Sequence record: OR844767
Length of the DNA stretch: 59,207 nucleotides
Strand: one strand, 5' to 3'
From: Escherichia phage ECO111 5-P
Shown: in pieces, positions 24,923 through 27,052 of the stretch
Layout of the letters: the number at the start of each line of letters is the position of its first letter
Numbering within the stretch: position 1 is the first letter of the stretch
Program-made: the position numbers and the translations under genes
Notes under the pieces: generated by a model
Databases searched by the model: none
What the model was told of the DNA's origin: nothing
The model's input: only the letters and a program-made list of their open reading frames with translations

Positions 24923-27052
24923 TCAGTACACAAAGCGGCAAGTGATTTGCACCCGATGTTTCCGTGGTGGCTGCGGCATTTCGTACATCGACTTGTCGCG
25001 CATCATTACCTGCTCAAGTACCTGACGGACTCGTAGCGTGGATTGGGGAGCATCTTTGTCTGGGTAATTAGCTTTATCGGCATAGTGCTGCAAAACTTGA
25101 GACACCTTTGCAAATGATTGCGGGACGTCCTTGTCAGGGTATTCCGCCGTCATTGATACATGCTGAATTACCTGCTGAACCGCAAGCGGTTTGTGCAGTG
25201 TGCTCCAATCCGGGTAAGACGCATCCTGTGCCGCCTGCTGAATGATCTGGCTGACAATAAGCGGCCGGAACATGGTACCGGGATCAGGGAAATCGTCAAT
25301 CTGCGCAACGTGTTCCAATACCTGATTTACAATCGCGTCCGACGTCGGCAGGTGGACGTCCGGATAGACGGCCGGGATCGCGATGTGCTCCAGCACCTGA
25401 TTGACCGTCAGGTGGGATACCGGGACAGTCGGGTCAGGGTACGTCGCGCGGAACGCCACTGGCTGCATCACCTGACGAACATGGATACCGGACTCGGCGA
25501 CTTCGCCCGGAGGCGGCATGTACTGGTACCGCGTCACCAGTTCAACAAATTGCGCCAGCGGAGCGTGCGAGATCGGGAGCCGCAGCGGTTGGGCTTTCAC
25601 CACCTTCTCTAAGAACTGCGGCACGATCTGAACCTTGCTCGCTTCCCACATGTCGTTCGGGTCTTCGTAGTCCAGCGCTTTCATGACGTGGTACGCCGTG
25701 GCCGCACTAACGATGGCCGACGTTGTAGGGATGCCCGGGTCAGGGTAGTCCGTTGCCTGCTGCACCACCGACATGCGAACAGCGTCAGCGCGCGACCACA
25801 CCAGCAGGTTAATCGGAGGCGTGTACACTTCCGCCCGCACCGCATAGCCGCGTACCTGTTTAACGCGCGTCCGAGACAGCACCGGGGGCAAGTCAGACTT
25901 GACCAAGAACTGAGACGAAACATGTTTGGTGCGCATCGTGGACAGCGGAATGACTCGTTGGTTATCGCTAAATTGCAGCACCAGCGGCGTCAGGGACTTC
26001 GCGCGCGTGTAACTGATAGGAAGCGACACCTGATACTCGCAAACAGCGTACGACGTCACTGCGGACGCGTGCTCGACGCCGACAGTCGGGTCAACGAAGT
26101 CCGCCGGGATGACAGCCTGTGACAGCGCCTGCGCGGCAAACACGTTTGACCGGGGCATCGGGATCGGCAGCGCGGAAACGGCCTGCGACAATTCCTGCGC
26201 CACGCGGGTAAGCGAGCGCGGCAGGCGTTCAACCGGGCGCTTCTGCGCGGCCAGAACCACGTTAGATTTAACGGATGCGGGCGTCGTGTACATCGGCAGC
26301 GGATGGGCCTGAACCACCAGCGTCGATTCATGGCGAACGAACACACCAGACGTCGGGACGTACGGGATGTCGATGGACTGCAATACCAGATTCCAGACCT
26401 GCTTCGTCTTAACCTTCGACCACATTTCATCCGGCAGCGGGAAGTCACCGAGCGTCGCGGCCACCACGGCAAACGACCACGCCGATTTAACCTTGTCGTA
26501 CGAAATGGTCACGATAGGCGATGCCAGCACGGACAACGTCACCGCCTGTTTCACGATGTTGTAGGAAATCGGGTCATCGATCGGCTGCTGAACGATGGCA
26601 TAATTCCACAGCGAGTACAGGCGTTCCGTAGAAATGACATCCGATAACGGCGGTACGACGTCGTGCTGCGTTACATACTGATAAACCGCGTCCGCGTACA
26701 GCGGCGGCCGTTCAGTGGCCGCCTGCCCGATCGCCTCGCAGACCATTTCGGCCGCCATAAATTGCGGCTCTTTGACCAGCGCTTCGCAAATCATTGTCGA
26801 TGCGCGGATCTCCATCTTTTGAATCGCCAGCACTTCGCCGACCAGTCTGGCGGCGCGGAAGATAGACGGCAATTTACCGTCCCACTGCAAAACCTCCCCG
26901 AAGTTTTTCGCCGCGTCCATGTTCAATGCGGAAATGGCTAACGCTTCCCCTACACACCGGGACAGGTATGTGAGTTTGGGCTTCTCGCCATTCCACTGCA
27001 AGGCTTCGCCGACCAGTTTGGCCGCGCTGATACCTACGTCTTCATCCGCCAC
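24923..27052 (-). CDS. repeat-containing virion protein (putative tail fibre or fibre-associated protein)
   Basis: 709 aa; GTG start 27052 with AAGGGGG RBS; at least 8 tandem ~25-aa repeats of the form YPD(x)...P.S...V.QVL(E/Q)H in the C-terminal half. Confidence 0.5.
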   Translation of the reverse strand: MADEDVGISAAKLVGEALQWNGEKPKLTYLSRCVGEALAISALNMDAAKNFGEVLQWDGKLPSIFRAARLVGEVLAIQKMEIRASTMICEALVKEPQFMAAEMVCEAIGQAATERPPLYADAVYQYVTQHDVVPPLSDVISTERLYSLWNYAIVQQPIDDPISYNIVKQAVTLSVLASPIVTISYDKVKSAWSFAVVAATLGDFPLPDEMWSKVKTKQVWNLVLQSIDIPYVPTSGVFVRHESTLVVQAHPLPMYTTPASVKSNVVLAAQKRPVERLPRSLTRVAQELSQAVSALPIPMPRSNVFAAQALSQAVIPADFVDPTVGVEHASAVTSYAVCEYQVSLPISYTRAKSLTPLVLQFSDNQRVIPLSTMRTKHVSSQFLVKSDLPPVLSRTRVKQVRGYAVRAEVYTPPINLLVWSRADAVRMSVVQQATDYPDPGIPTTSAIVSAATAYHVMKALDYEDPNDMWEASKVQIVPQFLEKVVKAQPLRLPISHAPLAQFVELVTRYQYMPPPGEVAESGIHVRQVMQPVAFRATYPDPTVPVSHLTVNQVLEHIAIPAVYPDVHLPTSDAIVNQVLEHVAQIDDFPDPGTMFRPLIVSQIIQQAAQDASYPDWSTLHKPLAVQQVIQHVSMTAEYPDKDVPQSFAKVSQVLQHYADKANYPDKDAPQSTLRVRQVLEQVMMRDKSMYEMPQPPRKHRVQITCRFVY

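What the first reader, a model, noticed from the sequence alone, without database searches (positions are those of the whole stretch)
24923..27052. 709-aa tail-region protein built from at least eight ~25-residue repeats
The C-terminal half repeats the pattern YPD(P/K/V)...P.S.A.V.QVL(E/Q)H (for example YPDPTVPVSHLTVNQVLEHIA, YPDVHLPTSDAIVNQVLEHVA, YPDKDVPQSFAKVSQVLQHYA, YPDKDAPQSTLRVRQVLEQV). I do not recognise this repeat from characterised tail fibres; it may form a solenoid or repeat-beta structure for adhesion.
Basis: seen in the sequence. Interest (0 to 1): 0.55.

Follow-up and report, generated by a model that had tools for sequence, protein, structure and literature searches.

The report
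Repeat-built virion protein of Chi-like phage
This gene encodes a 709-residue protein made almost entirely of short repeats that no database recognises; its relative in another flagellum-dependent phage is an essential virion component, so it is a strong but unproven candidate for part of the long fibre these phages wrap around bacterial flagella.

Summary
A 709-aa ORF lies at 24923..27052, on the minus strand, with a GTG start and a good ribosome-binding site. It carries six perfect-register 25-residue units (aa 537-686), two half units, and about 20 degenerate units, all far above chance.

The window is a Chi-like flagellotropic siphovirus. The gene is Chi gp36 / YSD1_35, annotated "hypothetical". 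It is the last gene of the tail module, after the gpJ-like hub (YSD1_29) and five other uncharacterised genes, and a terminator follows it.

- **Known families:** there is no Pfam, NCBIfam or PDB match, even with a profile. Only 89 clusters turn up among 1.84 billion representative proteins.
- **Virion evidence:** published data on the JS26 homologue (gp49) show 88% peptide coverage in CsCl-purified virions. Its abundance is similar to that of the hub protein, which by lambda analogy is trimeric, and it is essential by Tn-seq.
- **Comparative evidence:** a Klebsiella relative on a non-flagellated host lacks the gene.
- **Structure:** the 25-mer reads as an amphipathic helix plus a proline-rich linker, not a beta solenoid. 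Two AlphaFold2 monomer runs failed (pLDDT 29 and 38).

Best reading: it is an elongated, oligomeric segment of the single long tail fibre. Its location in the virion and any receptor binding remain untested.

The parts
24923..27052 (-). CDS of the 709-aa repeat protein (= Chi gp36/CHI_36, YSD1_35, JS26 gp49 homologue); 78.7 kDa, pI 6.3, no membrane-span-like segment
27050..27063 (-). GTG start codon (27052-27050) with AAGGGGG Shine-Dalgarno-like site (27063-27057), 9 nt after the stop of the upstream gene
26720..27031 (-). N-terminal array, aa 8-111: six 16-19-residue units with the core [VFI]-[GC]-E-[AV]-[LI]. Most variable part of the protein within Chivirus and not detectably conserved between genera
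25445..26719 (-). Middle region, aa 112-536: about 18 degenerate 20-31-residue units of the type P-x-S-x3-[VA]-x..-hydrophobic-Q, rich in beta-formers
26345..26380 (-). Non-repeated family signature Q-S-I-D-I-P-Y-V-P-T-S-G (aa 225-236). Ser226 is the only invariant column over 73 family members
25880..25945 (-). Unit LSTMRTKHVSSQFLVKSDLPPV (aa 370-391), present as an exact tandem 22-aa duplication in 731-aa relatives (e.g. P0001, phage Utah P0005)
25700..25750 (-). Half unit of the 25-mer (aa 435-451, DYPDPGIPTTSAIVSAA)
24995..25444 (-). Six tandem 25-residue units (aa 537-686), consensus D-Y-P-D-[PK]-D-x-P-x-S-x-[AL]-x-V-x-Q-V-[LI]-[EQ]-[QH]-V-A-x-x-A. Most conserved region of the protein
24926..24994 (-). 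C-terminal tail (aa 687-709), MYEMPQPPRKHRVQITCRFVY: a basic patch followed by an amphipathic beta-strand-like end. It is conserved in type across the whole family
24882..24902 (-). Intrinsic-terminator-like hairpin (8-bp stem, T tract) 20 nt after the stop codon, separating the tail module from the lysis genes
27062..28288 (-). Upstream neighbour, 408 aa (Chi gp35). It is the hypervariable member of the module: 74% identity to Chi/YSD1 where the other genes are 97-98%
28303..31316 (-). Three paralogous genes of 339, 320 and 335 aa (PHROG 2448, unknown function; Chi gp34, gp33, gp32)
31326..32066 (-). 246-aa DUF2793 protein (Chi gp31, annotated 'tail fiber protein')
32066..35956 (-). 1296-aa gpJ-like baseplate hub 2 protein (PDB 8VJH chain A; YSD1_29, the protein the literature reports as the long tail fibre)

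Best explanation
The gene encodes an essential, low-copy structural protein of the distal tail apparatus of Chi-like flagellotropic siphoviruses.

**Build.** The protein has about 30 short repeats in three classes:
- a variable N-terminal array;
- a degenerate middle array rich in beta-formers;
- a conserved C-terminal array of six 25-residue 'amphipathic helix + proline-rich linker' units, ending in an invariant basic beta-strand-like tail.

**Proposed role.** I propose it is an elongated, flexible homo-oligomer, probably a trimer, that forms one segment of the single 220-nm curly tail fibre. It would act together with the products of the five genes before it and the unresolved C-terminal part of the gpJ-like hub.

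**Proposed polarity.** The conserved C-terminal end would be the assembly or anchoring end. The fast-evolving N-terminal end, together with the hypervariable 408-aa neighbour, would be the specificity end.

**Shown:**
- the repeats;
- the gene's position in the tail module;
- the absence of any known family;
- virion presence and essentiality of a homologue;
- absence from a relative that infects a non-flagellated host.

**Inferred:**
- oligomeric state;
- fibrous shape;
- location in the fibre;
- polarity.
For: **Module position.** It is the last gene of the tail module, with a terminator after it, and the synteny is kept in Chi, YSD1, JS26, Proteus pPM_01 and metagenomic relatives.

**Virion presence of the homologue.**
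- JS26 gp49 (record 23663-25786) matches the window protein by tblastn at 27% identity over 88% of its length, E 3e-29.
- The family HMM scores the JS26 locus at E 1.9e-190.
- Gene numbering was checked.
- gp49 was found in CsCl-purified virions with 68 unique peptides, 1241 PSMs and 87.9% coverage (PMC8754663 Table S6).

**Copy number.**
- PSMs per residue are 1.8 for gp49 and 2.2 for the gpJ-like hub gp56.
- They are 2.7 for each of the two other tip proteins, 7.9 for the portal and 37 for the tail tube (my arithmetic).
- Taking the hub as a trimer, by lambda analogy from general knowledge, this suggests roughly three copies per virion.

**Essentiality.** All virion-detected proteins of the JS26 late operon were essential by Tn-seq, and gp49 is not among the seven listed as undetected (bioRxiv 10.64898/2025.12.19.695335).

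**Unresolved in the Chi structure.** Neither this protein nor three of its module neighbours that I queried (246, 339 and 408 aa) matches any PDB chain, although the Chi tail tip is solved. The 335- and 320-aa paralogues were not queried. This is what one expects of flexible, unresolved parts.

**Comparative contrast.**
- Klebsiella phage KPN N98 (Yonseivirus) has a capsid protein 87% and a tape measure 65% identical to the window's.
- Its host is non-flagellated, and the lineage is described as having a compact fibre instead of the long one.
- It lacks this gene and its four upstream neighbours and carries a tailspike-sized gene in their place (PMC12264135).

**Modular, length-tolerant build.** An exact 22-aa tandem duplication occurs in 731-aa relatives. 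Family lengths run from about 600 aa to 934 aa, with one 1536-aa fusion protein.

**Failed monomer prediction.** Two AF2 monomer runs gave pLDDT 29 and 38 and contradictory secondary structure. That fits an obligate oligomer, although it has other explanations.

**Divergence gradient.** The 408-aa neighbour and this protein's N-terminus evolve fastest.

**Fusion in a distant relative.** Family member P0094 fuses the repeat array to an F5/8 type C carbohydrate-binding domain.
Against: - The only experimental assignment of the long fibre is to another protein, YSD1_29, by immunogold labelling and antibody neutralisation (Dunstan 2019, as summarised in PMC12264135). That paper could not be read here.
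- Nothing localises this protein within the virion.
- The virion and essentiality data come from a homologue only 27% identical.
- Spectral counts are a crude guide to copy number.
- The failure of AF2 could equally reflect a shallow or repeat-confused alignment or intrinsic disorder.
- The polarity of conservation (variable N-terminus, conserved C-terminus) is the reverse of most tail fibres.
- The comparative contrast rests on one lineage, and in it the hub's C-terminal half is lost as well, so the contrast cannot separate the two candidates.
Confidence: 0.5

Rival explanations
1. The long fibre is made only by the C-terminal part of the gpJ-like hub (YSD1_29). The repeat protein is then a different tail-tip component, for example one that meets the cell-surface (secondary) receptor or helps trigger DNA release at the base of the flagellum.
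For: - Immunogold labelling and antibody neutralisation assign the fibre to YSD1_29 (PMC12264135).
- The hub has about 530 residues beyond the region shared with another solved gpJ-like protein, ending in a proline- and acid-rich stretch.
- The repeat protein's virion presence and essentiality fit this reading equally well.
Against: - About 530 residues per chain would have to rise more than 0.4 nm per residue to span 220 nm (fibre length from PMC4342425). That exceeds a fully extended chain.
- Six further virion proteins encoded after the hub have no assigned place in the virion. The four of them queried here have no PDB match.
Confidence: 0.27
2. It is an internal or ejected protein, carried inside the tail or tip and released at infection to help DNA cross the envelope.
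For: - It is low-copy, essential and virion-associated.
- It has many amphipathic segments and a C-terminal basic patch followed by an amphipathic strand ending in an aromatic residue.
- It gives no confident fold as an isolated monomer.
Against: - The gene sits at the distal end of the tail-fibre block, not next to the tape measure or head genes.
- It has no hydrophobic span; the maximum 19-residue Kyte-Doolittle mean is 1.5.
- It is lost together with the fibre-type block in the Klebsiella lineage, which still has to eject DNA.
- One distant relative fuses the repeats to a carbohydrate-binding domain.
Confidence: 0.1
3. It is a non-structural assembly factor or scaffold for the fibre that is not part of the finished virion.
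For: Its position next to fibre genes is where fibre chaperones are often encoded (general knowledge).
Against: The JS26 homologue has 87.9% peptide coverage and 1241 PSMs in CsCl-purified virions, comparable to bona fide tip proteins. At 709 aa it is also far larger than known fibre chaperones.
Confidence: 0.03

Closest known systems
Serratia (Prodigiosinella) phage JS26 gp49
   Same: It is a full-length homologue in the same gene position, in a flagellum-dependent Casjensviridae phage. It has the same C-terminal repeat type and the same kind of C-terminal tail.
   Different: It is only 27% identical. It is annotated 'putative capsid protein' or 'hypothetical', and no function or repeat architecture has been described for it. 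Only its virion presence and essentiality are known.
YSD1_29 / Chi gp30 (baseplate hub 2 protein, PDB 8VJH)
   Same: It belongs to the same tail module and is the candidate for the same structure, the long flagellum-binding fibre.
   Different: It is a different, non-homologous protein (gpJ-like, Pfam Phage-tail_3) with a compact solved N-terminal part. The repeat HMM finds nothing in it.
T4 long tail fibre (gp34-gp35-gp36-gp37), as an analogy recalled from general knowledge
   Same: It is a fibre built from the products of several consecutive genes joined end to end, with the most variable parts at the receptor end.
   Different: There is no sequence relationship. The serial-assembly idea for Chi is my inference, not a result.
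Segmented trimeric coiled-coil fibres (T4 fibritin, trimeric autotransporter stalks), as an analogy from general knowledge
   Same: Short amphipathic helical segments are interrupted by regular linkers, as the 25-mer suggests.
   Different: The helices here would be only about 12-14 residues long. There is no profile match to any such protein, and the oligomeric state is unknown.

Membership tests
PHROG 7226 (unknown function) | Full-length profile match | tested here: met
   E = 0, 1274 bits, protein residues 43-709 on profile positions 1-667 of 667. The profile starts at the shorter annotated start.
Phage tail fibre / tail-associated structural protein (generic kind) | Encoded in the tail module | tested here: met
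   It is the last gene after the tape measure, distal tail protein, hubs and DUF2793 'tail fiber' gene, just before the lysis cassette, and the synteny is conserved.
Phage tail fibre / tail-associated structural protein (generic kind) | Present in purified virions | tested here: met
   Met through the JS26 homologue only: 68 unique peptides, 87.9% coverage (PMC8754663 Table S6). It has not been shown for this phage.
Phage tail fibre / tail-associated structural protein (generic kind) | Elongated homo-oligomeric (usually trimeric) fold | tested here: inconclusive
   AF2 monomer models gave pLDDT 29 and 38. Spectral counts close to those of the hub protein are only suggestive.
Phage tail fibre / tail-associated structural protein (generic kind) | Binds the host receptor (flagellin) | not testable with these tools
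   This needs binding assays or structures.
Known repeat or fibre domain families (Pfam: Phage_fiber_2, collagen, LRR, parallel beta-helix and others) | Profile match at or near the curated threshold | tested here: not met
   The protein has 0 Pfam families at E <= 1. Across 73 family members there are only scattered single hits with E >= 0.012. NCBIfam gives none. The PDB gives nothing by sequence, and the profile search gives only a single hit at E = 1.4, which is not significant.
gpJ-like central fibre / hub (YSD1_29 type) | Homology to Phage-tail_3 / lambda J N-terminal region | tested here: not met
   No Pfam hit. The family HMM and the repeat HMM hit only this ORF in the window.
Tape measure / membrane-active ejection proteins | Hydrophobic membrane-span-like segments; position next to tail chaperones | tested here: not met
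   The maximum 19-residue hydropathy is 1.5. The gene is separated from the tape measure by ten genes.

The most novel reading that the evidence does not exclude
The repeat protein, not the gpJ-like hub, is the flagellum-contacting thread of the 'nut-and-bolt' fibre. Each 25-residue unit comprises a helix of about 2 nm and a linker of up to about 3.5 nm. Such a unit could span about one flagellin lattice spacing, roughly 5-6 nm by my own estimate from published filament geometry recalled from memory. The array would then give multivalent, weak, slide-permitting contacts along a groove of the filament.
Probability: 0.12. Interest if true: 0.85.

Novelty: new variant of a known kind. Interest (0 to 1): 0.5.

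Why it matters
Phage Chi has been a model for flagellum-dependent infection since the 1960s, yet the molecular make-up of its 220-nm fibre is still unsettled. One protein has been labelled on it, a second is annotated as 'tail fiber', and neither this protein nor the three of its five neighbours that were checked has a solved structure.

This protein is the only repeat-built, evidently non-globular product of that block. Its homologue is essential and is present in virions. Naming it as a candidate fibre segment, with defined repeat units and a variable end, gives concrete targets for labelling, repeat-number engineering and host-range swaps. It also defines a repeat family absent from the Pfam and NCBIfam libraries searched here.

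Tried and rejected
- **Pfam, NCBIfam, PDB sequence and PDB profile searches:** no meaningful hit.
- **AlphaFold2, twice (20- and 73-sequence alignments):** both unusable (pLDDT 29 and 38) and mutually contradictory, helices in one and strands in the other. I therefore ran no fold search, since matches to such models are meaningless.
- **Extending the strict 25-mer upstream by iterative HMMs or a position matrix:** this found only the six full units. hhalign of the repeat profile against the family gave only weak extra matches at aa 434-450 (E 4e-4) and 271-293 (E 0.012). The broader repetition rests on the dot-plot.
- **DNA-level tandem repeats:** none.
- **Prophage copies in 185,579 species genomes:** one hit only, in a metagenome bin. 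The family alignment A2 was too diverse for that tool.
- **Distant members P0102 and P0092 against cultured phages:** nothing, or only the same Chi-like set.
- **Literature:** the Chi cryo-EM paper, Dunstan 2019 and Schade 1967 are not held. Searches for YSD1_35, CHI_36 or gp36 found no study of this protein.
- **Beta-solenoid reading:** rejected because glycine is only 2.3% of residues and the 25-mer's hydrophobic periodicity is helical.
- **Collagen-like reading:** this would fit 0.29 nm per residue, but it is rejected for lack of Gly-X-Y.
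Full report
**1. The observation.**

The 709-codon ORF exists at 24923..27052, but on the minus strand; the plus-strand frame is full of stops. All quoted peptides are there, and [YF]PD motifs start at aa 436, 538, 563, 588, 613, 638 and 663.

A 25-column HMM trained on the repeat across the family finds eight matches. Six are full units in exact register (aa 537-686, 36-45 bits each). Two are half units (435-451 and 525-536). No match of 3 bits or more appeared in 100 shuffles.

A self-dot-plot has 205 fourteen-residue windows scoring 30 or more, against 0.4 per shuffle. These tie together three regions:
- an N-terminal array (units of 16-19 aa with the core V-G-E-A-L);
- a middle region of about 22-aa units (for example LPRSLTRVAQELSQAV / MPRSNVFAAQALSQAV);
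- the C-terminal array.

No DNA-level tandem repeat exists, so the units are old and kept by selection.

The GTG start at 27052 has an AAGGGGG site 4 nt upstream. The ATG at Met45 that some annotators use has none, and the 44 residues before it hold two more repeat copies.

**2. Where it is.**

The window is about 97% identical in this gene to many Chi-like Salmonella phages. The gene is CHI_36 in Chi and YSD1_35 in YSD1, both annotated 'hypothetical'.

On the minus strand the gene order is:
1. tape measure;
2. distal tail protein (562 aa);
3. hub 1 (272 aa);
4. two small genes;
5. the 1296-aa gpJ-like hub 2;
6. a 246-aa DUF2793 protein annotated 'tail fiber protein';
7. three paralogues (335, 320 and 339 aa; PHROG 2448);
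8. a 408-aa protein;
9. this gene;
10. a terminator-like hairpin (24902-24882);
11. the lysis genes.

The 1296-aa protein is the sequence of PDB 8VJH chain A. It is YSD1_29, the protein reported by immunogold labelling to form the long fibre, with a compact N-terminal part and an unresolved C-terminal part (PMC12264135). Esteves et al. instead call CHI_31 the putative fibre gene and state that this has not been shown (PMC10399903).

This protein and its 246-, 339- and 408-aa neighbours have no PDB match. The 335- and 320-aa paralogues were not queried.

**3. What family it is.**

Only PHROG 7226 (unknown function) matches. Pfam, NCBIfam and PDB give nothing, even for a 73-member profile or for every member scanned singly.

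A profile search of 1.84 billion representative proteins finds only 89 clusters. Most are 600-770 aa long.

In cultured phages the family is confined to Chi-like Casjensviridae, mostly on Salmonella, Proteus, Providencia, Serratia, Escherichia, Hafnia/Enterobacter, Cronobacter and Erwinia. One exception is Xanthomonas phage XAP3. Species genomes hold one copy, in a metagenome bin, and IMG/VR holds 15 loci.

Features shared across the family:
- the signature Q-S-x-D-I-P-Y-x-P-x-S-G in the middle of the protein;
- the YPD-type C-terminal units;
- a C-terminal tail of P-P-R-[KR]-H-R followed by a strand-like run of alternating hydrophobic residues.

Relatives of 731 aa carry an exact tandem duplication of a 22-aa unit. 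One 1536-aa member joins the repeats to an F5/8 type C domain.

**4. Experimental evidence from the literature.**

JS26, a flagellum-dependent phage of the same family, has the same gene order. Its gp49 (record 23663-25786) is the homologue. The tblastn match is 27% identity over 88% of the query, E 3e-29, and the family HMM scores the JS26 locus at E 1.9e-190.

In CsCl-purified JS26 virions gp49 gave 68 unique peptides, 1241 PSMs and 87.9% coverage (PMC8754663 Table S6). Dividing PSMs by protein length (my arithmetic) gives:

| JS26 protein | PSMs per residue |
|---|---|
| gp49 (homologue of this protein) | 1.8 |
| gp56 (gpJ-like hub) | 2.2 |
| gp59 and gp60 (other tip proteins) | 2.7 each |
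| gp50, gp51 | 2.9, 3.2 |
| gp52-54 (three paralogues) | 5.2-6.2 |
| portal | 7.9 |
| tail tube | 37 |
| major capsid protein | 76 |

This points to about three copies per virion, if the hub is taken as a trimer by lambda analogy. The estimate is crude.

A Tn-seq study states that every virion-detected protein of the late operon gp46-gp73 was essential. It lists the seven undetected ones, and gp49 is not among them (bioRxiv 10.64898/2025.12.19.695335).

This holds at the level of a distant homologue.

**5. Comparative evidence.**

Klebsiella phage KPN N98 (Yonseivirus) infects a non-flagellated host. Its capsid protein is 87% and its tape measure 65% identical to the window's. It has no detectable copy of this gene or of the four genes before it. 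After a shorter gpJ-like gene and a DUF2793 gene it carries an 869-aa and a 364-aa gene instead. The authors of PMC12264135 describe that lineage as having replaced the long flexible fibre by a compact one. This ties the block to the long fibre. It cannot separate the block from the hub's C-terminal half, which is lost as well.

Divergence is uneven:
- **Against Chi and YSD1:** the 408-aa protein is 74% identical and this protein 93-94%, while the other tail proteins are 97-98%.
- **Across genera:** the 339-aa protein keeps 81-88% and the 408-aa protein 28-39%.
- **Within this protein, across genera:** the N-terminal 115 residues are mostly undetectable, the middle keeps 43-59% and the C-terminal part 53-67%.
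- **Within Chivirus:** residues 51-100 vary most and 551-709 least.

**6. Structure.**

The logo of 548 aligned repeat units is D-Y-P-D-[PK]-D-x-P-x-S-x-[AL]-x-V-x-Q-V-[LI]-[EQ]-[QH]-V-A-x-x-A. The hydrophobic columns 14, 17, 18, 21 and 22, and a moment peaking at 80-100 degrees, indicate a 12-14-residue amphipathic helix after an 11-residue proline-rich linker.

The middle units are rich in Val, Thr, Ser and aromatic residues. The second AF2 run drew them as strands. Glycine is only 2.3% of residues, and there is no membrane-span-like segment.

AF2 with 20 sequences gave pLDDT 29 with short helices. With 73 sequences it gave pLDDT 38, with strands in the N-terminal 107 residues (pLDDT 50-62) and in the middle region. 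Neither model is usable. I take this as weak support for a fold that exists only in an oligomer or in a complex.

**7. Most likely mechanism.**

Chi carries a single 220-nm curly fibre (PMC4342425). The roughly 530 residues of the hub beyond its conserved gpJ-like part cannot span that length, because it would need more than 0.4 nm per residue.

The six proteins encoded after the hub total 2357 residues. If they were joined in series as trimers they would need about 0.09 nm per residue, which is within the range of thin phage fibres. This is my estimate and an inference, not a result.

Within that block this protein is the only one built from repeats. I therefore propose that it forms an elongated oligomeric segment of the fibre. 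The conserved C-terminal array and tail would be the assembly end. The variable N-terminus, next to the hypervariable 408-aa protein, would be the specificity end. I put this at about 0.5.

The main rival, at 0.27, is that the hub alone is the fibre and this protein is another tip component. An internal or ejected protein (0.1) and a non-virion assembly factor (0.03) are less likely, for the reasons given under the rival explanations.

**8. Novelty and verdict.**

The protein family is already in databases as 'hypothetical', and its virion presence in JS26 is published. Its repeat architecture and a role in the fibre have not been described in anything I could search. The repeat has no curated family.

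I class it as a new variant of a known kind: a tail-fibre-type structural protein with an undescribed repeat. Interest is moderate at 0.5. It bears on an old open question and is directly testable, but the key claim, location in the fibre, is inferred.

Noticed in passing
window 27062-28288 (-): The 408-aa gene just upstream is the hypervariable member of the tail module. It is 74% identical to Chi/YSD1 and 89% to phage Ariobarzanes, where its neighbours are 96-99%, and 28-39% identical across genera. It is a likely host-range determinant. Its C-terminal two thirds match PHROG 2448 weakly, so it is a distant paralogue of the three genes before it.
   Followed up: partly
window 28303-31316 (-): Three consecutive paralogous genes (339, 320 and 335 aa; PHROG 2448, unknown function) begin with a shared M-x-x-F-x-D-G-[YF]-[DE]-[QH] motif. 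Their JS26 counterparts are the most abundant of the post-hub virion proteins (5-6 PSMs per residue).
   Followed up: partly
window 24882-24902 (-): A terminator-like hairpin (8-bp stem, T tract) sits between the end of the tail module and the first lysis-cassette gene, which has its own GAGGAAG ribosome-binding site.
   Followed up: partly
window 26918-27052 (-); L001 12001-14130: Annotators disagree on the start. Several records (e.g. Ariobarzanes; the PHROG profile) begin at or near Met45, giving 665 aa. YSD1, Chi KM458633 and NCBI's own annotation of the Salmonella genome records use the upstream GTG, giving 709 aa. The ribosome-binding site and repeat content favour the longer form.
   Followed up: yes
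one search hits H31, H48, H49 (phages 37, ST-118, 35): In three records the gene is split into two pieces or annotated as two genes ('putative capsid protein', 'site-specific recombinase'), with a 1-nt length difference in phages 35 and 37. These are probably sequencing frameshifts, since the JS26 homologue is essential.
   Followed up: no
one search hits H58, H69, H84 (GU169904.1 Staphylococcus phage SA1; Enterococcus phage records): Records named for Gram-positive hosts contain this Chi-like gene (91-95% identity in SA1 and Efm 3-10, about 27% in AS-M1_NWU). They look like chimeric assemblies or mislabelled hosts.
   Followed up: no
window 32066-32400 (-), C-terminus of the 1296-aa hub: The hub protein ends in a stretch of about 100 residues rich in Pro, Asp and Glu, followed by a short Trp-rich motif. 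Its acidity contrasts with the basic C-terminal tail of the repeat protein, which suggests a possible docking pair. This is pure conjecture.
   Followed up: no
JS26 record MN505213.1 22550-23314 (gp47): The JS26 counterpart of the window's endolysin-position gene was detected at low level in purified virions (3 peptides, 10 PSMs). The Tn-seq paper counts it among virion proteins. It may be carry-over.
   Followed up: no
window 36427-38943 and 31326-35956 (-): The tail-tip genes carry the Pfam families DUF2460, Phage_BR0599, Phage-tail_3 and DUF2793. From memory, these are the families typical of gene-transfer-agent-type tips (unverified here).
   Followed up: no
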